A program made the position numbers and the translations under genes. From assembly GCA_025812035.1 (NCBI GenBank), contig GCA_025812035.1_4719.1: a stretch of DNA of 64,000 nucleotides. One strand, 5' to 3'. Origin of the DNA: a phage. Position 1 is the stretch's first letter. Every line of letters starts with the position of its first letter. Shown here one piece after another: positions 40,329-51,074 of this stretch. Below the pieces are notes generated by a model. It was not told the DNA's origin. It did not search any database and was given only the letters and a program-made list of their open reading frames with translations.

Positions 40329-41975
40329 TTAGGCTCCACGAGGTCCCGTTAAGTTGCGTAATAGGAACGCAACCGTATCGTAACCAATATCGATGTTGAA
40401 TTTATTTTTACCACTTACCCAGAAAGCACGTTTCTTGTGCGAGTTGGTAATTTCGTCAATGGCTTCCATGGAATAAAGAACGTTAACCGAGACCGTATCG
40501 CCATCAAAGTCCCCACCAAGTCCGGCGAGGTACGGGGCTGGAACAATAGTCGTTTCTACGAACGAAGCATTAGGTAACCAATCTGGGTATTCCCATGCGA
40601 TAAATCGCTCATCCGTTATTGGTTCCCAGTTACTATCCAGTTCGGTTTTCGGTTTTGCTGCAACGGTCGTACGCGCATAACAGGTTAACGGAATGACGGA
40701 TTGCATACCCGATACCGGATAACGTGTTACCATCGCTGCCAGGTTATTCCAGTATTTATATCCAGCAATATAGATAAGCTCAGTATACGTAATGGGGTGA
40801 ACATCCGCCCCGGGTTTGTTAAGCATCTCTGGGGGTAATTCACTCATACCACGGAATAACCGAAACGAATCATTATTCACATAGACCAGGCAGAGATAAC
40901 GTCCATTGACCATGATAGGTTCGTTACGCACACCTGGATCGCTTAAGGTGTTCAGTAAACGTTCTATCCCATCCCATGTTGTAAAGTCATCGATGGTGTC
41001 TGGATCAAGCGTGACGCGTTCACGTTCCATCGTTTCGGTATCAATAAGTTCAACTTCTGTAACATCACGGACAAATATTTCCTGCAAAATCCCCGTACGT
41101 AACGCATGTTGCGTTACTGGGAGAGCAGCTTTACTCATCTGGTATAACCCTAACTGAACTGCAGTACAGGAAGGCTGGTTAGGCGACCCTAGTACCTCCG
41201 TTGTGGGGTTAATTGCTGAAATAACGTTACGGGTTGAGTTCCAAACACGACGTGAGCCGAACTTACCTTGGAAGATCCCTTTCTTACCTTGGAACATATC
41301 CAACAACAAAGCGTAGATGTCGTTAAATGTTCTCTGTAAGCTCCAGCGCTGACCGTCGTAAACGGGATCCGAATAATCTTTTAATCCATCCGGGACGGTG
41401 TTAGAAATTGCCAGGAAACGACGATACAACTCTGTGATTTCTTGCTCGCTTTCATACCCGCCTTCTTTTACTTCTATTTCACGTAAACCCGCAGGTAAAA
41501 CCAGTAGATGACGAGTCATCGCTTTGAACATGTTCTCTTCGACAACCTTGATTCGTAGCTCTCGTTGAGCTGAACCCGTTGAAACGAACTTGATATCAGC
41601 GACGTGTTGTGCAAAGAACCCGTATCCTGTTTGTCCTGTTAGCGCATCGGACGCAACGAAGTCACGTTGTTCAGGATCCCAACGCGCGTACGCCTTCCCC
41701 GACATGATATCACCGTAGAGGTGTTTTAGTCGAATGAGACGATCGTAGATGACAGGGTGTAGGATTTCAACTTTGCATTCAATCACCGCAAATCGACGGT
41801 CTCGATCTTCGCTACCCGCACTACCAAAGATGGTGTATGAATAGAAACCGTCATCGTGGAAATTACCGGTGCTTGGATCACGAATGCTCATGCTCGTGAT
41901 CTTGGGGAGAAAACGTAACTGCTGTTTATCGAGGTGTAAAATGCTAATATTAAACGGCTCTCTGACTTTAGCCAT
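40329..41975 (-). CDS. multisubunit RNA polymerase beta-prime-like N-terminal subunit
   Basis: Start trimmed to ATG 41975 (AAAGAGGAG RBS); RRFAVIECKVEILHPVIY resembles beta-prime RMGHIELAAPVAHIWF; GKFGSRRV...NVISAIN resembles [27 protein letters not shown] catalytic motif near C-terminus. Confidence 0.65.
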   Translation of the reverse strand: MAKVREPFNISILHLDKQQLRFLPKITSMSIRDPSTGNFHDDGFYSYTIFGSAGSEDRDRRFAVIECKVEILHPVIYDRLIRLKHLYGDIMSGKAYARWDPEQRDFVASDALTGQTGYGFFAQHVADIKFVSTGSAQRELRIKVVEENMFKAMTRHLLVLPAGLREIEVKEGGYESEQEITELYRRFLAISNTVPDGLKDYSDPVYDGQRWSLQRTFNDIYALLLDMFQGKKGIFQGKFGSRRVWNSTRNVISAINPTTEVLGSPNQPSCTAVQLGLYQMSKAALPVTQHALRTGILQEIFVRDVTEVELIDTETMERERVTLDPDTIDDFTTWDGIERLLNTLSDPGVRNEPIMVNGRYLCLVYVNNDSFRLFRGMSELPPEMLNKPGADVHPITYTELIYIAGYKYWNNLAAMVTRYPVSGMQSVIPLTCYARTTVAAKPKTELDSNWEPITDERFIAWEYPDWLPNASFVETTIVPAPYLAGLGGDFDGDTVSVNVLYSMEAIDEITNSHKKRAFWVSGKNKFNIDIGYDTVAFLLRNLTGPRGA

Positions 41976-42217
41976 GGAGACACTCCTCTTTACCACCACC
42001 GGCGGCGGTATCATCTGAACACACGAGAGACGTAATGGGTGATGGCGTCACCCATCGCTTCCTTGCTTGAGGCGAGGAAGTTATTAGGTTACGTACCTGT
42101 TTGATAAAATCAAACAGGCGATGTGTGAAGTTACGCTTCAACATTATCAATGCCGAAGGTAAACTTCGTGCATCACGTTCCAACGTAACATGGGAACGTA
42201 TCGAACTGGAGGTATAC

Positions 42218-45200
42218 ATGGTAGATAAAACCCGTGTTGAGGGTGATGATAATTGGGACAACTGGGATGAAGACTTCTCCCTGGATCTCGATTTTAACGA
42301 GCCTAAAGACGATCGTAAACCAATAACACGCTTTGCGATAGGAGCGGTTAAAGGTGCTGCTGAGGATCTTACTTCCTACGAAAGAATGAAGGAGATCGCC
42401 AGAAACGCATTGCCTAAGGGCTATAGCGACGGTATGGATCTTATCGATTCCGCCGTCGGATCCACGAAGGAACTATACAATGAAGCCGTTCGTGATGTTC
42501 TTCCTAAGGTCCAAAGCTCAAAACGGTTAGCAGCACAACTAACCAAGAAATATCGTGCAAGCATGCCCGATTTCTCGAAGAAAATTATCGAGCGTTGGGA
42601 GCAAGAAGCCAAAGAAGAAGACGAACGTAAACAGGCTGAAGCAGAACTCAAGCAACGCATGGCGAACGCGGGAGATGATGAAATCGCCCGTAAGGTTGCC
42701 GAAGCGTTAGGCGAGTCAGCAAACCAAAGCGCGGATCAGTTTGCCGAACAGCAAGCAAAAGAAAGTATCCGTGACGATATTGCCGACAAACGGTACGCTG
42801 TAACCAACAAACAAATGAGTGCGATGCAAGAAGGCGTCGCCAAGATGGTTGGTTTCAACAACGAATTCGCTGCACGCTACATGCGTAAAAGCCTGGAACT
42901 GAAATATCGTTCCTTAGCGATTCAACGTGCAAGTTTTGATCAGCATAAAAAGTTAGCCGAAGTCTATATCGGTTTATTACAAAACATCCAGAAGAACACG
43001 GCTTTACCTGATGCAGCTAAAGCGAAAATGTCGGAAGAATTCCGTCGTAGTGCATACCAACGTTTCTTTGGTAATGCGTTAGATGCGATGAGTTCTTTCG
43101 AGAGCCGTTTCTTTGCCGATGTTAAGAAAAACCTTGCCACCAACGCATTAGGTGCTTTAAAAGGCGTCGTGTCTGGAGCAAACGATGCGTTATACGGTTT
43201 AAACGAAGCGCGTGACTCGATGTCCATGATGGATGGGATGGGGTCAGAAGGCGATATTAAGGAAATGCAAGGAAAGATGTTGGGTCAGTTTATTGGCTCA
43301 ACTGTTGCACCATGGATGGCTAATAAAGGCATGATGGCATTACGCGATTTAGCAAAACGTCATCCCAATGCTAAATTCGCAAGTGCGTTAAAAGCCGTGG
43401 ATCAAGGTGGTGAGGCCGCCGCCTACACAACGCGTAATATCGGTAAACTGCTCCAGGAAGATATTCGTAAAAACGAATTCAATCTTAACGATCCGTTTTA
43501 CAAGCAGTTGTTACGTGGTGCAGGGCGTTGGGCGTTCAACATGGACAGTGGACGTAACTTCCGTGTGATGAACGACACCGCTGAAACACTGGCGGAGCAA
43601 ACGTCATTCGATGGTTTGACTTACCGCAGCATCAATGAGGTTATTCCTGGTTTTCTTGCTCGCATTCTGAAAAGCAGTGAAGGCATCCGCACGGGAAACA
43701 GTGATCCCGACTACGAGGTCTATGACGGCATCAGCGGGCAATTCGTGGCTCAGCGCACGCGCGAACAAAGCGTCAACGACACACTGTTTAACAAACGTTC
43801 GTTTGGTTATTACGCGAGTCGTTTCAATGAGGTCATCTCGGTCATCGATCCCGATAAACAGTTATCGGAAAAAGCCAGGAAGGCATTGGCTAAACAGCTG
43901 GCACGAGACAGTGACGCAAACATCGCATTCGACCCAGCTCGTTTTACGGATGAAAGTAACTTCGATCGCAGTATCGACCGTGACGCTATTAAGGAACTTT
44001 CCACGTACTTCCGTGACCGTTACGGTATTCGCGATCATGTCGATGATAAGGGCGAACGTCAGCAAGTCATTGAAAACCGCGGGCAATATTACACGGAACG
44101 TAACCGAGCGGATCTTCGTTACGGTAATCTGAAATCCTTACAGCCGGATATCCAGCGTAACCTTAACCTACTGAAACGTACTGGCGACGTCCAATATCTG
44201 GAACGTATCGGTATCGTAACAAGAAATAGTGACGGTAGCTACTCGGTTAACCACGATCGGTATTTCTCTGAAATCGATCAATACATCGATCGACCAGAGT
44301 ACGCTGACCGCGGCGATGTCAGTACGCGATTAACCGATCAGGAAACAAGAGCGCTGGCGCTGGGTTATCGTGACGCAAAACCATCAACTGGCGACGTCCA
44401 AAATTCTGGTCTGCCGAACATCGATCGTAAGGCTGCTGGAACAGTAACCGTTGATGAAAACATCGGTTACGATAAATGGTGGAATGACGCAGGTGTTATC
44501 ACCACATCGCTTGAAGAACAGAATCGAGCATGGCAAGAGCTTTATCTCGAAGCGCTGTCTGAAGCATCCGAACAACGTGTTGAGATGCTTGCGTTACTGA
44601 AAGCCATTTCTGAGAAAGACTGGTCTAATAACGTTTCGCTGGATGGCGAAGACGTACCTGAAGGTACAGCACCCATTTCGTTTATCGATCGCGCTAAACA
44701 AAAACTCGGTACACACAACCTCTTTAAACGTGGTCGTAATCTCCTCTGGAAAGGAATTAAAAATACCGCACGGTTGGGTGTTAAAGGTGCGCGTTGGGGT
44801 GCAGAACGCACGTTGGGTAGTTTGGTAAATTCTGGCCGACGTATTATCAACTTCAACCGCTTCGTGTTCGGCGCATTATCCAAGGTTGATCAGGTTCCAT
44901 TCGACATTTACGTTAAAGGGGAATCCCAACCGCGTATATTGGCAGCCAAGCTTCGTCAGGGGTTATACTTCGACGAAGCTACGGGAAAAGCCGTAAAACG
45001 GATGAAGGATATCAAAGGCCCACTCGTTGATGCAGATGGAAACATCGTAATCAGCAACGAGGATATCGAGAAAGGGCTGGTCACTCGCGCCGGTCGTGCT
45101 TTTGAGAATTCGGGACTTAAAGCGTGGGCGCGTGAAGGCCTTAATGGGATAACAACGGTATTAAGTCTACCACGGATGTTAAAACGCGGTGCGGTTGAGA

Positions 45201-48200
45201 TCTATAAACAGCTTGACAAGACGCCCGACGTTTACGTCAAAGGAGAATCAACACCTCGCCTACTGTCCATGGTGTTAGCGGCGGGCGGGTATTTCCGTCG
45301 CTCTGATGGACAAGTCATCAAAAATCTTGAAGACATTGACGGTGACGTTGTTGATGCGCAAGGTAACGTTGTACTTACGCTTGCCGACATGCAGAAAGGG
45401 CTTGTCGATAAAAACGGTAAAGCGATTCGTCGCTTAAAAGAAAAGCTTATCAACTTCGGTGTGAAAGCTTTCACGTTACCGTTAACCCTGCTACGTAAAA
45501 CAAAGGACATCCTTAAAACCCTTCCCAGTAAAACGGTTAATGGTTTACGACGGATGGGATTAAACTTCCAATCACCTGATGCATTATTGGTAGGAACAAC
45601 GTCGGGTATGGTAGATCGCCTCGATGCTATTTACCAGCTTCTTGACCAGCGTATGCCGGGTGGTGACAGGGATTATCGCGATTGGAATGGTGACGGTGTT
45701 CGAGAAGGATCGTTGGAAGACCTGAAACGTAAACGTGAAGCCAAGGAAAACGGTAAGGATAACGCAGGCAAAGATTCTGGTAAAGGAGAAGAAAAGGAGA
45801 AGAAACGAGGATTACTCGGAAGCCTTTTCGATATGCTCGGCGATACCGCGTTAGGTAAACGACTCATGGCGAGTCCGCTTGGAAAAATCCTAGGTGGTCT
45901 TGGGGCGGTGTTAAGTGGTGGTGCATCACTAACCGGGTTGTTAGGTAAGGGACTTGTTAGAGGAACCGGTGCGCTGGTTAGAGGAGGACTCAGTGCGGCG
46001 GGATGGTTAGGACGTGGTGCGCTGATGGCTGGTGGGGCCGCACTTAATGCTGTTGGTGGTATGGCTGGACTAGGCGCGTTCCTCATCTCACCTGTTGGGC
46101 TTGCTATTGCTGGCGGTGCGTTGGCTGCTTATGCTGGATGGAAAATCTATCAGCATTTCGCTGAGAAGCCTGACCCAATGCAGAAGCTCCGTCTTATTGC
46201 ATACGGTGCAAAAGGGGACGATAAAGACTTCAATAAGAAGTTGCTTGCGACAGAAACATACCTCACCGATCACGTGGTCATGACCGGGGACACCATCGGA
46301 TTCGATCCAAAAGCCGATTCTGAAAAGATTCTCGAAATCTGGGAATTGTCTCTGGAAGATTCCGATCGAATGAACGAATGGAAACGTTGGTATCTGCATC
46401 GTTTTATTCCTGTTTTCGCTCGTGCGTACAAACTCTGGAAAGAGCATATGCCGGACGAGAAGAAATACATGGAAATGGACAAATATCCAAACGGTGAGAA
46501 CAAAGTGAAATGGTCGGAAGCATTCATCTGGCCTTCCGATAGTCCTGACGGTCCGTATTACGTTGAGGCGAATCCGTTGGGTTCTTCCGGCGCGACGCTT
46601 TATATTGCCGGTCAAGACGTCAAAACCTTGATGCTGAAACAACTCGAAGCCATCAAGAAAGAGTACCAGAATCAGATTAAACAATACTCTCATGATGAGG
46701 CTATTGCTGATTGGTCACGGATGTCTGACACACAGCGTAAATCCGTCGCACCTAATGCGTTGCGAGGCCAGAAAGCGTCATTACGTTTTAACGATAAACG
46801 TTACAACAGTGCTGGTGCTAAAGGACGACAGAAACTGGATGCAACCGCGGTTATCGAAAGCGTAGACCGTCGTGGTAGAAAATGGGTTGCCGGTGGGTAC
46901 ATCGATGAACTCACCAGTCTCCGTGTTCGTGCGTACGGTATTAAGGTTCCGTTGCTAAGCCAGATAAAAGTGCTGATGGAACTCGAAGACGCTGTAGAAC
47001 CGGGCGTTGTCGCTGAAGGTAAAGGCGTTAAATACGGCGGTGATCTTGTCGCTCTCTACAAGAAATTCGCGACGAAGTTCGGAAGAGACGTTAACGGTAA
47101 ACAGGATCAGGATATCTGGTTTGCTTGGATGAACAACCGTTTCCTGCCCGTCTTTTTAACCTATTACCAACAAGTTAGCGAAATGGGTGGTCAAGGTCTT
47201 CTGTCCGATGTGGTACAGAACCTGAAAGACAGCCAACGTTGGGAAATCGGTGAAGCGCTTGTCGCGACGCAATACCGCGATAAAAAGGGTGCGCTACAAC
47301 CCGTGTGGTCGTGGAATAGCTGCGGTTTCTCCGGTACCGAAGCCAACACCACCAGCAGTTCAACAAAGAGCCAGCTCGATCTGTTAAAAGAATACGCGGA
47401 TAAAGAGAAGGTTCGTGAGAAGAACGCGGAAGCATCGCAAGAGGATACCGATAAATTATCGAAGATCCAAGAGCTGATGATGAAGCAGGCTGGGTACGAG
47501 AAGAAAGACGGTGTCTGGCAGAAGAAATCTCGCATTACCGGCGGAATGAGTAATTCCGAAGCGAATTACAACCCCAATGGGAATAAAGTCGGTGCAAGCA
47601 GCTTTACCGCCTCGGCTACTTCCGGTGCGGGATTGGGATCAACCGGCGATCTTACTGGGTTGCCGAACATGGGCTTACAGAAACCTGCAACGGGACCAGG
47701 TCCTGAAGCTGGACGACGTACGCTTGTTAAATCCGCTGTGAAACACGGCATCACCGATCCAATGGAAATGGCCATGTTCCTTGCGAACATCGAACATGAA
47801 TCGGGGAACTACACTCACGTACGTGAGGGGAACTATAAGACGCCCGAGCGTCTTAAACAGGTCTTCCCTTACAAATTCCGTGACGTGCAGGATGCCGCAC
47901 AGACGATTAGCATGGGGCCAGAAGCGGTATTCGAACGTGTGTATGGTAATCGTAAAGATCTAGGGAACACACAGAAAGGGGACGGAGCGAAGTATTTAGG
48001 ACGTGGCTTCATTCAGGTTACCGGTAAAGCTAACTACGCTCGTCTGTCCAAGACCTTGAATAAGGATCTTGTCAGCGATCCGTCTTACCTGGAAACGCCG
48101 GAAGGTGCAGCGGAAGGTAGTGTTGCGTGGTGGCTCAACCGAGGTAACGTACTACGTGATCCCGCAAAACGGGGTGATGTACGCAAAGTTCGTTATCTGG

Positions 48201-48883
48201 TTAACGGCGGCTATAACGGATTACGTGATGTCGAACAACGTTCTGCCTATTGGATTCAGGCGGCTAAGAATGGCACCCTGAAGAAAATGATGGACGAGTT
48301 ATCGGGATCAACATCGGGCGATCAAACTGAAGGACCAACTACCGCCGAACAGGTGAAGAACGAAGCAGCGCAGGAGGCAAACGGAACACCTGCGACAAGC
48401 AACGATCCGCAAGCTCCAGCGCCTTCTACCACCCCTGAAGCTAAACCGGCTGCGGCTGCCGGGACGGCTCCAGCACCCGGAGAAACGTCACCGACACCTG
48501 GAAGTTTCGAAACAGCAAAAGCCGCAGCAGGACAACCGGCATCAACCCCAGCACCGAGCGATTTACCGTCAAACCCCGGCGCAAATCGAGGGATATCGGT
48601 TCCGAGCACACCTACACAGGTTGCGCAGTCAGCGTCACAAACATCGGCTGCAAGCGAGAACTTCTACGGTAGCGCAGGCGAAATTCTCCGACAACAGCTG
48701 ACCACACAGCAGAACATCGAGAAGAACACTGGTAGAACGAATGAACTTATTTCGGAACTGATCCAGGCCGTTAAGGGTTCTTCTATCGGTAAGGGTTCTG
48801 CAAGTCCTTCTCAACAACAGACGATGCCGCTACCTAATCGTCCGCAAGGAATCTCTCCGACACGGACAAGGTACGCACAGTAG
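42218..48883 (+). CDS. giant virion-associated protein with C-terminal GH19 peptidoglycan-hydrolase domain (phiKZ gp181-like)
   Basis: ~2221 aa from ATG 42218 (GGAGG RBS); GH19-like block FLANIEHESGNY...YLGRGFIQVTGKANY (~47720-48290); Gly-rich hydrophobic segment; tandem ~105-aa repeat; Pro/Ala/Thr-rich tail. Confidence 0.7.
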   Translation: MVDKTRVEGDDNWDNWDEDFSLDLDFNEPKDDRKPITRFAIGAVKGAAEDLTSYERMKEIARNALPKGYSDGMDLIDSAVGSTKELYNEAVRDVLPKVQSSKRLAAQLTKKYRASMPDFSKKIIERWEQEAKEEDERKQAEAELKQRMANAGDDEIARKVAEALGESANQSADQFAEQQAKESIRDDIADKRYAVTNKQMSAMQEGVAKMVGFNNEFAARYMRKSLELKYRSLAIQRASFDQHKKLAEVYIGLLQNIQKNTALPDAAKAKMSEEFRRSAYQRFFGNALDAMSSFESRFFADVKKNLATNALGALKGVVSGANDALYGLNEARDSMSMMDGMGSEGDIKEMQGKMLGQFIGSTVAPWMANKGMMALRDLAKRHPNAKFASALKAVDQGGEAAAYTTRNIGKLLQEDIRKNEFNLNDPFYKQLLRGAGRWAFNMDSGRNFRVMNDTAETLAEQTSFDGLTYRSINEVIPGFLARILKSSEGIRTGNSDPDYEVYDGISGQFVAQRTREQSVNDTLFNKRSFGYYASRFNEVISVIDPDKQLSEKARKALAKQLARDSDANIAFDPARFTDESNFDRSIDRDAIKELSTYFRDRYGIRDHVDDKGERQQVIENRGQYYTERNRADLRYGNLKSLQPDIQRNLNLLKRTGDVQYLERIGIVTRNSDGSYSVNHDRYFSEIDQYIDRPEYADRGDVSTRLTDQETRALALGYRDAKPSTGDVQNSGLPNIDRKAAGTVTVDENIGYDKWWNDAGVITTSLEEQNRAWQELYLEALSEASEQRVEMLALLKAISEKDWSNNVSLDGEDVPEGTAPISFIDRAKQKLGTHNLFKRGRNLLWKGIKNTARLGVKGARWGAERTLGSLVNSGRRIINFNRFVFGALSKVDQVPFDIYVKGESQPRILAAKLRQGLYFDEATGKAVKRMKDIKGPLVDADGNIVISNEDIEKGLVTRAGRAFENSGLKAWAREGLNGITTVLSLPRMLKRGAVEIYKQLDKTPDVYVKGESTPRLLSMVLAAGGYFRRSDGQVIKNLEDIDGDVVDAQGNVVLTLADMQKGLVDKNGKAIRRLKEKLINFGVKAFTLPLTLLRKTKDILKTLPSKTVNGLRRMGLNFQSPDALLVGTTSGMVDRLDAIYQLLDQRMPGGDRDYRDWNGDGVREGSLEDLKRKREAKENGKDNAGKDSGKGEEKEKKRGLLGSLFDMLGDTALGKRLMASPLGKILGGLGAVLSGGASLTGLLGKGLVRGTGALVRGGLSAAGWLGRGALMAGGAALNAVGGMAGLGAFLISPVGLAIAGGALAAYAGWKIYQHFAEKPDPMQKLRLIAYGAKGDDKDFNKKLLATETYLTDHVVMTGDTIGFDPKADSEKILEIWELSLEDSDRMNEWKRWYLHRFIPVFARAYKLWKEHMPDEKKYMEMDKYPNGENKVKWSEAFIWPSDSPDGPYYVEANPLGSSGATLYIAGQDVKTLMLKQLEAIKKEYQNQIKQYSHDEAIADWSRMSDTQRKSVAPNALRGQKASLRFNDKRYNSAGAKGRQKLDATAVIESVDRRGRKWVAGGYIDELTSLRVRAYGIKVPLLSQIKVLMELEDAVEPGVVAEGKGVKYGGDLVALYKKFATKFGRDVNGKQDQDIWFAWMNNRFLPVFLTYYQQVSEMGGQGLLSDVVQNLKDSQRWEIGEALVATQYRDKKGALQPVWSWNSCGFSGTEANTTSSSTKSQLDLLKEYADKEKVREKNAEASQEDTDKLSKIQELMMKQAGYEKKDGVWQKKSRITGGMSNSEANYNPNGNKVGASSFTASATSGAGLGSTGDLTGLPNMGLQKPATGPGPEAGRRTLVKSAVKHGITDPMEMAMFLANIEHESGNYTHVREGNYKTPERLKQVFPYKFRDVQDAAQTISMGPEAVFERVYGNRKDLGNTQKGDGAKYLGRGFIQVTGKANYARLSKTLNKDLVSDPSYLETPEGAAEGSVAWWLNRGNVLRDPAKRGDVRKVRYLVNGGYNGLRDVEQRSAYWIQAAKNGTLKKMMDELSGSTSGDQTEGPTTAEQVKNEAAQEANGTPATSNDPQAPAPSTTPEAKPAAAAGTAPAPGETSPTPGSFETAKAAAGQPASTPAPSDLPSNPGANRGISVPSTPTQVAQSASQTSAASENFYGSAGEILRQQLTTQQNIEKNTGRTNELISELIQAVKGSSIGKGSASPSQQQTMPLPNRPQGISPTRTRYAQ
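44897..45540 (+). repeat. tandem duplication of a ~105-109-aa module inside the giant virion protein gene
   Basis: PFDIYVKGESQPRILAAKL... vs PDVYVKGESTPRLLSMVLA..., matching periodic D/G/K positions; diverged at nucleotide level. Confidence 0.5.
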
Positions 48884-48932: not shown

Positions 48933-51074
48933 ATGGGTATTCTTGTTCAAAACGCCCTAATCACCAAACAGGCGTTTTTATTACCAGGCGATAGCAGCAC
49001 GCTTAGTGCCGACATGATTAAAGCGAGACATACACCGTATTCCTACGATAACGTCGATGATACCACCTTAGGTGGGAACTGGGTGCTTAACCCACCACCG
49101 CAATATACAAAATTTGCTGATATCAAGGAACGACGGCGTGCGGTTATGCCGGGGTCAACGGGTATGGGTCGCGGCTACAGTGAAAGCATTAACAGCTTTA
49201 AAGAAGTCGTTACGTTACGATTCGGTAAACCTCGCTTTACAGGCGCAAGTATCTTCTTCACTGATTTCTACGATGCGGATGTTGCTGTAACGGTTAAAAC
49301 AGGCCGCGATCCTGGTATTCTTTATTACGCAGCCAAAGCGTATACGACCGTTCTTTCTTACCTCACACCCCTACCTTACTTGTATATGGTTGGACGTATC
49401 GGTCGATATTTCCTGGGTAAGCCTACCAGTCAATATTACTATCAAGTACCAACCATGCATGTGTATTGGGCGTCTTTCCAGACGCTGGTAAACCAAACAG
49501 CGATGAACATGGGCCTTATCGCTGGTGCAGGTAAAGATAAAGGTTACGTGGAAGAAGGAGGTACCGTACTCCACCAATATTCAATCGGTGGTCAGGATGT
49601 TAAAGAATTCCTCAATTACGCCTCTAAGACGTTACCGGGGATTTATAAGAAAGGCGGTGGGATCGATATCTACCAGATTGCGACACGACGTCAGCGTATA
49701 CAGAACGCGTGGGTACGTCGTATTCAATCCATGATGGAAAACGATTACTCGTCTTACGAGGAGTTCTGGAACGATCTTGATAAACGACTTGATAGCGGAG
49801 CATTTCCATCGGATGTTACCGGTCGTACGCTAACGCAGTATCTTGCCGACACACAGAAGTCTGCTGTTTACAGCGCGACAGCGGGTGATAATAAACAAAC
49901 GATGGACGACCTTTTATTCGGAAGAGCTTCATACACCAATAAAGATGCTGATGCCAACTTCAAAGTTTCAGCGGCTACCTCCGATGGTGGCACATCAGCG
50001 CAAAGCCAGGGTACCACAGCCAACGTAGGTAACTCAACATCAGGAACAACGCAAGCGTCGACAGCAGCGTCAACGGCTGGAGGTGCGAACGTACAGAGCA
50101 AAGGAATCGGGCAAACGAACGCCGCCGAAGAAGCTACGTTTCTTGATCTGATGGATGCTGAATTGGCTGACGGTGCTCAGTTTATCAGTTTTCGAGTCGA
50201 CTCTGTCACCAGCGTAACCGAAACGTTTTCAAACAGCGCTTCAGAAAGTTCGATCGCACAGACGATGAATAGCCGCGCGCAGGCGAACATCGAACGTCGT
50301 TTCACTCTTTCAGGTGGCAATACTGGATGGGCTGTACTGGACGAAGCAATCAAAGCCGGTTCCGATCTCGTTAACGGTGCTATTTCCGGGATGGGTCTGG
50401 ACGGTATTTTTGGTGCCTTCATGGGTTCCGGTTTTGCAGACATTCCGAAATTCTATTCTGGATCGTCGGTTAGTCTTCCACGTGCAGATCTGACGATGGA
50501 ATTACGTTCCTGGAGTGGGGATCGCTGGTCGATCTTTACAAACCTCATGGTACCTCTTTTAGCCATTCTTGCAGGTGGTTTACCTCAGGCTACCGGTAAA
50601 TCGTCCTACGGGATGCCATTCATGTGCGAATGTTATATTCCTGGTAAAGTCCAGATTAAAATGGGCCTTATCGACAATATCACCGTAACGCGCCATGTTG
50701 GTAACGTACCTTCAACACGTGAACGGTTACCATTAGGTATCGACGTCAGCTTCAGCGTTTATGACCTCTCGTCTATCGTCGCAATGCCGATCACGACGAC
50801 AGCCGCATCGATTGCAAAATTAGATCCTCGTGGCTTCTTAAGTGATCTTCTTGCTGACGATACGCCACTCAACAACTATCTTGCTGTGTTATCGGCATTG
50901 ACACTTACGGAACAAGTTTACATGATTCCTGATTTAAGTCGTCGCATGCATAAAACCATGGCCGATATCGATAGTTTCTGGAGTAAAGGTAATTTTGCTA
51001 GCTGGTTGTCTGACACCATGCCTGGCAGGATAGCATCAGGGCTGTTATGGAAACGTACAGAACGACCGTTCTGA
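48933..51074 (+). CDS. hypothetical protein (possible virion protein)
   Basis: 713 aa, GAGGAA RBS, co-oriented downstream of giant gene, followed by hairpin. Confidence 0.55.
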   Translation: MGILVQNALITKQAFLLPGDSSTLSADMIKARHTPYSYDNVDDTTLGGNWVLNPPPQYTKFADIKERRRAVMPGSTGMGRGYSESINSFKEVVTLRFGKPRFTGASIFFTDFYDADVAVTVKTGRDPGILYYAAKAYTTVLSYLTPLPYLYMVGRIGRYFLGKPTSQYYYQVPTMHVYWASFQTLVNQTAMNMGLIAGAGKDKGYVEEGGTVLHQYSIGGQDVKEFLNYASKTLPGIYKKGGGIDIYQIATRRQRIQNAWVRRIQSMMENDYSSYEEFWNDLDKRLDSGAFPSDVTGRTLTQYLADTQKSAVYSATAGDNKQTMDDLLFGRASYTNKDADANFKVSAATSDGGTSAQSQGTTANVGNSTSGTTQASTAASTAGGANVQSKGIGQTNAAEEATFLDLMDAELADGAQFISFRVDSVTSVTETFSNSASESSIAQTMNSRAQANIERRFTLSGGNTGWAVLDEAIKAGSDLVNGAISGMGLDGIFGAFMGSGFADIPKFYSGSSVSLPRADLTMELRSWSGDRWSIFTNLMVPLLAILAGGLPQATGKSSYGMPFMCECYIPGKVQIKMGLIDNITVTRHVGNVPSTRERLPLGIDVSFSVYDLSSIVAMPITTTAASIAKLDPRGFLSDLLADDTPLNNYLAVLSALTLTEQVYMIPDLSRRMHKTMADIDSFWSKGNFASWLSDTMPGRIASGLLWKRTERPF

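What the first reader, a model, noticed from the sequence alone, without database searches (positions are those of the whole stretch)
44897..45540. Internal tandem duplication within the giant virion protein
Two consecutive ~105-109-aa modules align residue by residue at the protein level yet are diverged at the nucleotide level, so the duplication is ancient and maintained by selection. Repeat number could set the length of an extended fibre or tape-measure-like region.
Basis: seen in the sequence. Interest (0 to 1): 0.45.

Follow-up and report, generated by a model that had tools for sequence, protein, structure and literature searches.

The report
Ancient two-module repeat in jumbo-phage tail protein
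The giant tail protein of this Goslar-like jumbo phage really does contain two ancient, selectively maintained copies of a previously undescribed ~105-residue module, found in 2 to 6 copies in the related proteins sampled, but the copy number does not behave as a simple ruler for tail length.

Summary
Window 44897-45223 and 45224-45541 encode two adjacent modules (aa 894-1002 and 1003-1108) of a 2,221-aa protein (CDS 42218-48883). They share 39-42% amino-acid identity (BLASTP E=2e-23; shuffle z=29.5) but only 48% nucleotide identity, and synonymous sites are saturated.

The protein is the orthologue of Goslar gp204 and phiKZ gp181. This is the essential, low-copy tail protein with a muramidase domain that is usually called the tape measure.

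The module has no Pfam, NCBIfam or PDB relative. Each copy has a compact beta-hairpin core (AlphaFold pLDDT >90) followed by a ~45-aa basic amphipathic helical linker.

A profile of the module finds 1,150 protein clusters. Arrays follow the pattern A(n)B, with 2 to 6 copies. The first (A) and last (B) copies are positionally orthologous across phages, so the duplication predates their divergence. dN/dS against Goslar is 0.03.

Copy number tracks protein length (rho 0.61). However, phiKZ-type proteins carry 3 modules and have a shorter tail tube (43 rings, about 162 nm), while Goslar carries 2 modules and has 46 rings (about 180 nm). The "repeat number sets length" idea is therefore not supported in its simple form.

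The function remains inferred. My best reading is folded beads on a helical tail-lumen protein.

The parts
42218..48883 (+). CDS of the 2,221-aa giant tail protein, orthologue of Goslar gp204, phiKZ gp181 and SPN3US gp239 (the tape-measure candidate with a muramidase domain)
   Evidence: ORF. ATG preceded by a GGAGG ribosome-binding site. 93.4% nt identity to Goslar over the whole gene. PHROG 3201 E=1e-293. Goslar virion mass spectrometry. phiKZ orf181 is essential and 'likely tape measure'.
44738..44896 (+). Basic amphipathic helical segment just before the array (aa 841-893). It resembles the module linkers.
   Evidence: Net charge +8 and maximum helical hydrophobic moment 0.67. Predicted as a long helix, H833-888, at low confidence.
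44897..45106 (+). Module A core (aa 894-963): a compact domain of beta-hairpins and short helices
   Evidence: BLASTP and HMM. AlphaFold pLDDT >90 with the 25-sequence MSA, and the same secondary structure in the independent model of aa 1-1200. Among the most conserved segments of the first 1,200 aa.
45107..45223 (+). Module A linker (aa 964-1002): a basic amphipathic helix-break-helix containing an 'LSLPRML' motif
   Evidence: Net charge +4 and hydrophobic moment 0.69. Helical but low pLDDT. Poorly conserved in sequence.
45224..45433 (+). Module B core (aa 1003-1072): the terminal-type copy
   Evidence: Core identity is 72% to the same-position copy of the closest representative, against 48% to module A of the same protein. 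pLDDT >90.
45434..45577 (+). Module B linker (aa 1073-1120): a strongly basic amphipathic helix containing 'FTLPLTLL'
   Evidence: Net charge +8. Helix 1073-1092 predicted.
45812..46147 (+). Gly/Ala-rich hydrophobic segment (aa 1199-1310), about 90 aa after the array
   Evidence: 40-aa windows have hydropathy (Kyte-Doolittle) +0.58 to +0.78, 17-30% Gly and almost no charge. Hydrophobic, possibly membrane-associated regions are also described in the TP901-1 tape measure.
47720..48268 (+). GH19-like muramidase (endolysin-type) domain (aa 1835-2017)
   Evidence: PDB sequence hits 9eoi, 7r6s and 4ok7 with E 1e-18 to 1e-22. phrog_181 endolysin E=9e-53. Weak Pfam Glyco_hydro_19 hit.
48933..51074 (+). 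Context: the downstream 713-aa gene, homologue of Goslar gp203 (tail tube initiator complex) and phiKZ gp182 (spacer ring beneath the tube)
   Evidence: Synteny with Goslar and with 16 other isolates; in Halocynthia phage JM-2012 the gp182 homologue is on the opposite strand. Roles taken from the cryo-EM papers. The same gene order holds next to a 5-module homologue.

Best explanation
SHOWN.
- The region is a genuine, ancient tandem pair of a family-specific module. The pair consists of an A-type copy followed by a B-type copy.
- It sits in the middle of the orthologue of phiKZ gp181 / Goslar gp204. This is the essential, low-copy tail protein that carries a muralytic domain.
- Each module has a ~70-aa compact core followed by a ~40-45-aa linker. 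The core is made of three beta-hairpin-plus-short-helix units of about 19 aa after an N-terminal 'DVYVKGE.PRL' strand. The linker is poorly conserved but almost always basic, amphipathic and helical.
- Across the family the array follows the pattern A(n)B. Goslar, this window and most isolates have n=1. phiKZ-type, 201phi2-1 and Noxifer have n=2. Uncultured relatives reach n=5.
- All copies are old. No adjacent pair exceeds 65% core identity.

INFERRED (mechanism).
- The protein is a beads-on-a-string tail-lumen protein. Long helices (aa ~35-440 and 765-888) alternate with folded islands: a domain at aa 470-700, the A and B cores, and the muramidase.
- It probably lies as 3-6 chains in the unusually wide tube lumen (about 68 A) and is expelled when the tail contracts.
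- The A/B cores act as rigid folded spacers or docking beads. Their basic amphipathic linkers contact either the tube wall or each other during assembly. After ejection they may contact the cell envelope, ahead of the hydrophobic Gly-rich segment and the muramidase.
- The modules add to the length of the protein, but their number is not the quantity that sets the number of tail rings.
For: Repeat is real and ancient.

Family breadth and copy number: 1,150 protein clusters with E<=1e-3. The best 150 carry 2-6 tandem copies, and the median start-to-start period is 118 aa.

A(n)B pattern: AAAB occurs 16 times, AAB 13 times and AAAAB twice.

Isolates: 13 have 2 copies and 4 have 3 copies.

Fold:
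- Cores have pLDDT >90, and the secondary structure is reproduced in two independent AlphaFold runs.
- Cores are 20% helix and 26% strand, against 80% helix for aa 1-465.
- A ~19-aa sub-period is suggested (z about 3; only the shift of 38 passed the multiple-test threshold).
- 94% of linkers are net positive (+0.12 per residue), while cores are about neutral.

Identity of the protein:
- Goslar gp204 is present in virions at an estimated 3.4-8 copies. gp203, whose known count is 6, is estimated at 2.3-5.4 on the same scales.
- phiKZ orf181 tolerates no transposon insertions and is called 'likely the tape measure'.
- SPN3US gp239 is called the tape measure and is missing from tailless particles.
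- The gene sits beside the tube-initiator/spacer gene.

Not a simple ruler:
- 3 modules with 43 rings (phiKZ-type) against 2 modules with 46 rings (Goslar).
- The tube length per residue is 0.73-0.81 A (my arithmetic), about half the ~1.5 A per residue seen in TP901-1, where deleting 347 aa shortened the tail by 53 nm.
Against: - No structure or experiment places this protein, or these modules, inside the tube. Neither 2026 cryo-EM paper mentions gp181 or gp204 in its main text.
- The oligomeric state is unknown, and AlphaFold was run on single chains only.
- The tail comparison rests on two phages with ring-counted tails, plus phiKp24 measured from micrographs (2 modules, about 180 nm). The phiKZ module count was taken from OMKO1, a member of the same genus with an identical gene length of 6,714 bp.
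- The role proposed for the linkers is based only on charge and amphipathicity.
- The best-150 list is ranked by summed score, so it over-represents multi-copy proteins. The homologues used for the conservation profile were selected through the module itself.
Confidence: 0.55

Rival explanations
1. Ruler units. Each module is a length quantum of the tape measure, so gaining or losing a module lengthens or shortens the tail by a fixed number of rings.
For: - Copy number correlates with protein length: Spearman 0.61, median 2,204 aa at 2 copies rising to 3,343 aa at 6 copies.
- There is precedent. Tape-measure repeats exist, and deletions in TP901-1 shorten the tail linearly.
- The module period is fairly tight, with 74% of start-to-start distances between 100 and 125 aa.
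Against: - The phiKZ-type protein has 3 modules but 43 rings (about 162 nm). Goslar has 2 modules but 46 rings (about 180 nm), at nearly equal protein length.
- The core is predicted to be compact and beta-rich, not extended.
- The slope of 186 aa per copy exceeds the module size, so other regions grow together with the array.
- No recent duplications are seen. The maximum adjacent-copy identity is 65%, unlike the short 11-aa tape-measure repeat units whose duplications and losses have been reconstructed among related phages.
Confidence: 0.15
2. Post-ejection envelope module. The beta-hairpin cores bind a cell-envelope polymer such as peptidoglycan, and the basic amphipathic linkers bind anionic membrane. 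Together they would hold the expelled protein in the periplasm or inner membrane, next to its hydrophobic segment and muramidase.
For: - Units of hairpin plus turn with a ~19-aa period resemble wall-binding hairpin repeats in pattern only.
- Linkers are basic and amphipathic.
- The array lies about 90 aa upstream of a Gly-rich hydrophobic segment, in the same chain as a muramidase.
- The enzymatic domain has been swapped between lineages (GH19-like or SLT type) while the array is kept. This suggests the array has a role of its own.
Against: - The Pfam hits are only marginal.
- The most conserved positions are Gly, Pro, Asp and aromatic residues, typical of turns and cores rather than of a ligand site.
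Confidence: 0.2
3. Assembly docking sites. The cores are binding sites for a chaperone, the tube protein, or the initiator/spacer ring during tail polymerisation.
For: - The gene sits next to the tube-initiator/spacer gene in 17 isolates and in a metagenomic 5-module relative.
- The distinct terminal B type fits a unique partner at one end of the array.
Against: - No partner has been identified.
- No tail-chaperone gene was recognised next to the gene. The upstream neighbours are virion RNA polymerase subunits.
- No co-variation was tested.
Confidence: 0.1
4. No true repeat: the similarity arises by chance or from biased composition.
For: None.
Against: E=2e-23 and z=29.5 against shuffles. The family profile matches 905 protein clusters at E<=1e-10.
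Confidence: 0.01

Closest known systems
phiKZ gp181 / SPN3US gp239 / 201phi2-1 gp276 / Goslar gp204: the giant tail-associated muralytic protein of phiKZ-like (Chimalliviridae-type) jumbo phages, the putative tape measure
   Same: - Orthologous: 93.4% nt identity to Goslar gp204 and PHROG 3201 E=1e-293.
- Same gene order, between divergently transcribed virion RNA polymerase subunit genes and the gp182/gp203 gene.
- Same overall layout: helical N-terminus, A(n)B array, hydrophobic segment, muralytic domain.
Sources.
   Different: - The window and Goslar carry 2 modules and a GH19-like muramidase. phiKZ-type proteins carry 3 modules and an SLT-type domain.
- None of the papers I could read describes the repeat. 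The older 'cell-puncturing device' label is superseded by the cryo-EM spike assignments.
Tandem length units of siphophage tape measure proteins: 11- or 18-aa aromatic-marked repeats (TP901-1, lactococcal p2; Belcaid et al. 2011; Mahony et al. 2016)
   Same: Internal tandem duplication within a tail-lumen protein. Copy number varies between relatives and tracks protein length.
   Different: - The period is about 105-118 aa, not 11 or 18 aa.
- The core is a folded beta-rich domain rather than an alpha-helix.
- There is no W/F marker periodicity.
- The copies are ancient and positionally orthologous rather than recently gained or lost.
- Copy number does not follow tail length in the phiKZ/Goslar pair.
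Tape measure proteins with embedded cell-wall hydrolase domains (mycobacteriophage TM4 TMP; T5 Pb2)
   Same: One long tail protein combines helical regions, hydrophobic segments and a peptidoglycan hydrolase (the T5 Pb2 entry is).
   Different: - Those proteins have no A(n)B beta-core modules.
- This protein has about twice as many residues per unit of tail length as a classical helical ruler would need.
Beta-hairpin repeat domains such as cell-wall (choline)-binding repeats, and Pfam DUF3659
   Same: Only the pattern is shared: 'hhDxxGxhh' hairpins recurring roughly every 19-20 aa. The resemblance to choline-binding repeats is recalled from memory. DUF3659 gave marginal hits, 5 of 25 members with best E=0.04.
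   Different: No significant sequence or fold match was found. I treat this as a lead, not as membership.

Membership tests
phiKZ gp181-type giant tail muralytic protein (PHROG 3201) | Sequence homology across the N-terminal half | tested here: met
   phrog_3201 E=1.2e-293 over aa 12-1176. 93.4% nt identity to Goslar gp204.
phiKZ gp181-type giant tail muralytic protein (PHROG 3201) | C-terminal peptidoglycan-hydrolase domain | tested here: met
   GH19-like endolysin domain at aa 1835-2017, with PDB hits at E 1e-18 to 1e-22. The domain type differs from phiKZ's SLT.
phiKZ gp181-type giant tail muralytic protein (PHROG 3201) | Conserved gene neighbourhood: divergent virion RNA polymerase beta/beta' genes upstream and the gp182/gp203 baseplate ring gene downstream | tested here: met
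phiKZ gp181-type giant tail muralytic protein (PHROG 3201) | Low-copy virion (tail) protein, essential for the phage | not testable with these tools
   Known for relatives only: Goslar virion mass spectrometry, phiKZ transposon sequencing and SPN3US tailless particles.
Tape measure protein (functional class) | Protein length proportional to tail length at about 1.5 A per residue | tested here: not met
   1,801 A / 2,221 aa = 0.81 A per residue (Goslar) and 1,622 A / 2,237 aa = 0.73 A per residue (phiKZ). This is my arithmetic. TP901-1 gives about 1.5 A per residue.
Tape measure protein (functional class) | Long alpha-helical regions and a hydrophobic, Gly-rich segment | tested here: met
   aa 1-465 are 80% helix in the AlphaFold model. 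Hydrophobic Gly/Ala-rich segment at aa 1199-1310.
Tape measure protein (functional class) | Located in the tail-tube lumen, 3 or 6 copies per virion | not testable with these tools
   The mass-spectrometry copy estimate of 3.4-8 in Goslar is compatible. No lumen density is described in either cryo-EM paper.
Tape-measure length-unit repeats (11/18-aa type) | Short 11- or 18-aa period marked by Trp/Phe within an alpha-helix | tested here: not met
   The period is 109 aa here and has a family median of 118 aa. The core is beta-rich. The internal ~19-aa sub-period has no aromatic marker.
Tape-measure length-unit repeats (11/18-aa type) | Copy number scales with tail length | tested here: not met
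   3 modules with 43 rings against 2 modules with 46 rings. Only two ring-counted phages are available, so this is a weak test.
Known wall-binding or other hairpin-repeat domains (Pfam) | Significant profile or fold match | tested here: not met

The most novel reading that the evidence does not exclude
The A(n)B array is a new, chimallivirus-specific folded domain class that acts after ejection. Folded beads alternating with basic amphipathic helices, placed just upstream of a glycine-rich hydrophobic segment, would form or organise the trans-envelope conduit. They might even take part in remodelling the inner membrane into the early-infection vesicle that encloses the injected genome. On this reading the number of A units would be tuned to the envelope of the host rather than to tail length.
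Probability: 0.12. Interest if true: 0.7.

Novelty: new variant of a known kind. Interest (0 to 1): 0.38.

Why it matters
gp181/gp204-type proteins are the largest proteins of phiKZ-like jumbo phages. phiKZ orf181 is essential, yet this protein is missing from both 2026 cryo-EM reconstructions (phiKZ and Goslar).

This analysis gives that protein a concrete domain map. In particular it defines a strongly conserved, undescribed module with an A(n)B architecture, present in more than 1,000 protein clusters.

That supplies specific handles for follow-up: searching lumen density for beads, designing in-frame deletions, and improving annotation, since these genes are widely mislabelled 'tail fiber' or 'chitinase'.

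It also shows that this protein departs from the classical 1.5 A-per-residue ruler. This bears on how very long, wide contractile tails are measured.

Tried and rejected
- The search for homologous proteins with the repeat region returned nothing. The word-index search evidently misses this family, whereas the full HMMER scan found 1,150 clusters.
- The listing of cluster members gave no organism names for the multi-copy proteins, which are all metagenomic.
- tblastn of two 5-copy proteins found no isolate closer than about 31% identity. A tail-length test on phages with many modules was therefore impossible.
- The afdb50 fold library was unavailable.
- Foldseek against BFVD hit only homologous jumbo-phage proteins.
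- Marginal Pfam hits (DUF3659, Apolipoprotein, Phage_TAC_13) were all E>=0.01 and mostly fall on the Lys-rich linkers, so I rejected them.
- A degenerate third copy in the window protein was looked for and not found. The best candidate, aa 800-862, has E=0.5.
- Briers et al. 2008 on gp181 is not held in the library.
- The phage G paper's 'gp181' is an unrelated chaperone.


Full report
**1. What is at the coordinates.**
The finding lies in frame inside the longest ORF of the window, 42101..48883 on the + strand. The probable start is ATG 42218, which has a GGAGG 7 nt upstream, giving 2,221 aa. The Goslar RefSeq record starts its gene 93 nt further upstream, at a GTG.
- Nucleotides 44897-45223 encode aa 894-1002.
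- Nucleotides 45224-45541 encode aa 1003-1108.

**2. Is the repeat real?**
- BLASTP of the two segments gives E=2e-23 with 43/111 identities.
- The Smith-Waterman score is 181, against 27.8 +/- 5.2 for 2,000 shuffles (z=29.5). No other 106-aa window of the protein scores above 41 against module 1.
- At the DNA level only one 24-nt stretch is detectable. The codon-aligned identity is 48% and the proportion of synonymous differences is 0.78, which is saturated.
- A family HMM finds exactly two copies in this protein. The next-best stretch has E=0.5.

**3. Which phage and which protein.**
- The gene is 93.4% identical in DNA to Escherichia phage vB_EcoM_Goslar gp204, annotated 'tail fiber protein / putative chitinase'. 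The two proteins differ at 66 of 2,221 residues.
- tblastn with the repeat region hits 230-234 phage records. All hits examined are jumbo phages related to phiKZ, infecting Pseudomonas, Erwinia, Vibrio, Serratia, Aeromonas, Klebsiella, Ralstonia and others.
- In all 17 isolates examined the gene lies next to virion RNA polymerase subunit genes transcribed in the opposite direction, and next to the gp182/gp203 homologue. That homologue follows on the same strand in 16 of them and is on the opposite strand in Halocynthia phage JM-2012.
- The cryo-EM papers assign that downstream product to the ring under the tail tube. [quoted passage not shown]
- The family is that of phiKZ gp181. This 2,237-aa structural peptidoglycan hydrolase was formerly called a cell-puncturing device. 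[quoted passage not shown]
- SPN3US gp239 is called the tape measure and is absent from tailless particles.
- In Goslar virion mass spectrometry gp204 gave 34 peptides, was labelled a tail protein and was estimated at 3.4-8 copies. gp203, whose known count is 6, was estimated at 2.3-5.4 on the same scales.
- Neither the phiKZ nor the Goslar cryo-EM paper mentions this protein in its main text.

**4. Anatomy of the module.**
The family consensus is PVDVYVKGEKEPRLTAAKLKAGEYFDKKTGKVIKSLKDIKGPVVDEDGNVVLSAEDLKKGLVDKKGK. It is followed by about 40-45 poorly conserved residues rich in Lys and Ala, often with a 'hydrophobic-Pro-Phe/Leu' kink.

*Structure prediction.*
- AlphaFold2 on aa 888-1116 with a 25-sequence alignment gives pLDDT >90 for both cores. 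The linkers are low-confidence helices.
- The predicted core has an N-terminal strand (IYV), a short helix, and then three beta-hairpins, each followed by a short 'xxDIxxG' helix.
- An independent run on aa 1-1200 with a different 37-sequence alignment reproduces the same secondary structure.
- In that larger model aa 1-465 are 80% helix. The cores are 20% helix and 26% strand, and the linkers are 62-77% helix.

*Other properties.*
- A profile autocorrelation over 474 module instances peaks at shifts of 18-19 (z about 3) and 37-38 (z up to 3.6). This suggests a ~19-aa sub-repeat, but only the shift of 38 passes a family-wise 5% threshold.
- 94% of linkers carry net positive charge (+0.12 per residue), while cores are about neutral. 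Linkers have a higher helical hydrophobic moment than control segments, 0.53 against 0.43.
- The 53 residues before module A look like another linker, with charge +8.

**5. Is the fold or family known?**
- Pfam and NCBIfam give nothing for the repeat. Scanning 25 homologous double modules gives only marginal hits, the best for DUF3659 being E=0.04.
- Sequence and profile searches of the PDB match only the C-terminal muramidase, or low-complexity helical bundles.
- Foldseek against viral predicted structures finds only homologous jumbo-phage giant proteins.
- The module therefore appears to be an undescribed domain confined to this protein family. The caveats are that the AlphaFold database library was unavailable and that a 70-aa domain gives limited search power.

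**6. Distribution and evolution.**
- A two-module profile searched against 1.84 billion representative proteins finds 1,150 with E<=1e-3 and 905 with E<=1e-10. Nearly all of the best 150 are 1,800-3,900 aa long.
- After two rounds of profile refinement, those 150 plus the window protein carry 2 (51), 3 (43), 4 (40), 5 (14) or 6 (3) copies. This list is ranked by summed score, so it over-represents arrays with many copies.
- 84% of gaps between successive copies are 25 aa or shorter. The median period is 118 aa.
- Among 17 cultured phages, 13 have two copies. These are Goslar, phiKp24, FLC8, FLC9, RP12, pVa-21, Yong XC31, sm033, KpLz-2_45, Survivor, FLC1-1B, GXNNA8 and JM-2012.
- Four have three copies: OMKO1 (genus Phikzvirus, with a gene of the same length as phiKZ orf181), 201phi2-1, Noxifer and pEa_SNUABM_54.
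- In two-copy proteins, the best match of a module in another protein is at the same array position in 93 of 100 cases.
- HMMs trained on first (A) and last (B) copies classify held-out copies correctly in 61 of 64 cases.
- Longer arrays are mostly A...AB: AAAB 16 times, AAB 13 times, AAAAB twice. Growth was therefore mainly by amplification of the A unit in front of a retained terminal B unit.
- No adjacent pair exceeds 65% core identity, and the median is 37%. All these duplications are old.
- A 5-module protein sits in the same gene neighbourhood. Its upstream RNA polymerase subunit is 38% identical and its downstream gp203-like protein 29% identical to those of the window. The multi-copy proteins are therefore orthologues.

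*Selection.* Against Goslar, dN/dS is 0.048 for the whole gene, 0.034 for the modules, 0.019 for the cores and 0.058 for the linkers. Across 36 homologues the cores are among the most conserved parts of the first 1,200 residues. The mean top-residue frequency is 0.58-0.59 in the cores, 0.36 in aa 1-893 and 0.26-0.30 in the linkers. Those homologues were selected through the module, which biases this comparison.

**7. Does copy number set length?**
- Copy number correlates with total protein length. Spearman is 0.61, the slope is 186 +/- 21 aa per copy and r2 is 0.35. Medians rise from 2,204 aa at two copies to 3,343 aa at six.
- The slope exceeds the module size, so other regions grow too.
- Goslar has 46 tube rings at a rise of 39.16 A, about 1,801 A, with two modules and 2,221 aa.
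- phiKZ has 43 tube rings at 37.73 A, about 1,622 A. Its protein type has three modules and 2,237 aa.
- phiKp24 has two modules, 2,201 aa and a tail of about 180 nm measured on micrographs.
- More modules therefore go with a shorter tail in the only ring-counted pair.
- The tube length per residue is 0.73-0.81 A. This is half the ~1.5 A per residue of a helical ruler such as TP901-1, where deleting 347 aa shortened the tail from 118 to 65 nm.
- By my arithmetic, the ~68 A lumen reported for phiKZ encloses about 5.9e6 cubic A. Six 246-kDa chains occupy about 1.8e6 cubic A. Folded domains can therefore fit inside.

It cannot be excluded that modules contribute to length in lineages with long arrays, because no cultured phage with four or more modules was found.

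**8. Best explanation and rivals.**
What is shown: an ancient, selectively maintained A-B pair of a new folded module in the centre of the gp181-type tail protein.

What I infer: the protein is a helical string carrying folded beads. The beads are the domain at aa 470-700, the A and B cores, and the muramidase. The protein would lie in the wide tube lumen in 3-6 copies and be expelled on contraction. The cores would serve as rigid spacers or docking beads, and the basic amphipathic linkers as contact elements.

Rivals:
- True ruler units, disfavoured by section 7.
- Envelope-binding modules that act after ejection. This is compatible with the basic linkers, with the hydrophobic Gly-rich segment about 90 aa downstream, and with the array being kept while the enzyme domain is swapped. 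No similarity to any known binding domain supports it.
- Docking sites for assembly partners, which was not tested.

**9. Novelty.**
Tandem duplication in tape measure proteins is a known theme, and the protein family is known. The module is different in several ways:
- its ~110-aa folded unit, made of a beta core plus a basic helix;
- its A(n)B organisation;
- its positional orthology across phages;
- its lack of any fold relative.

None of these is described in the papers I could search. I rate it a new variant of a known kind, of moderate interest.

Noticed in passing
window 40329-42014 (-), junction near 40508/40510; Goslar locus L001 4361-6405: Goslar has a ~2,045-bp insertion in a virion RNA polymerase subunit gene. 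It consists of an annotated group I intron plus gp206, which Pfam identifies as an HNH_3 + NUMOD1 homing endonuclease. The window phage lacks the insertion and has an uninterrupted 561-aa ORF, i.e. an intron-less allele.
   Followed up: partly
window 47720-48268 (aa 1835-2017) compared with homologues: The muralytic domain of this protein family is interchangeable. Of 168 family members, 24 carry the GH19-like domain seen here, in Goslar, FLC8/9, Survivor and GXNNA8. 85 carry the SLT-type domain of phiKZ. 59 match neither by BLASTP at 1e-5. All of them keep the A(n)B array.
   Followed up: partly
window 45812-46147 (aa 1199-1310): A ~110-aa Gly/Ala-rich, almost uncharged hydrophobic segment follows a highly charged Lys/Glu-rich stretch (aa 1161-1198). 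It is likely a membrane-inserting or glycine-zipper region of the tail-lumen protein.
   Followed up: no
window 43613-44317 (aa ~466-700): AlphaFold predicts a confident mixed alpha/beta domain here, with pLDDT 80-94 for aa ~510-690. It sits between the long N-terminal helices and a disordered stretch (aa 700-771), and is another uncharacterised folded island in the protein.
   Followed up: no
window 48335-48637 (aa ~2040-2140): A Pro/Ala/Ser/Thr-rich low-complexity region lies after the muramidase domain. The C-terminal part (aa 2021-2221) has the highest dN/dS of the gene, 0.106.
   Followed up: no
window 42125 vs 42218: The Goslar RefSeq annotation starts the gene at a GTG equivalent to window 42125. 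The ATG at 42218 has a canonical GGAGG 7 nt upstream and is the more likely start.
   Followed up: partly
window 44897-45541, inside each module core: Each core seems to be built from three ~19-aa hairpin-plus-short-helix units. The profile autocorrelation peaks at shifts of 18-19 and 37-38 (z about 3-3.6), which hints at an even older internal triplication. Statistical support is marginal.
   Followed up: partly
database annotations of homologues: Orthologues are variously annotated as tail fiber protein, chitinase, endolysin, lytic transglycosylase, hydrolase or hypothetical protein. The 'tail fiber' label looks like a propagated misannotation, given the low copy number and the tail-lumen or tape-measure role assigned in the literature.
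   Followed up: no
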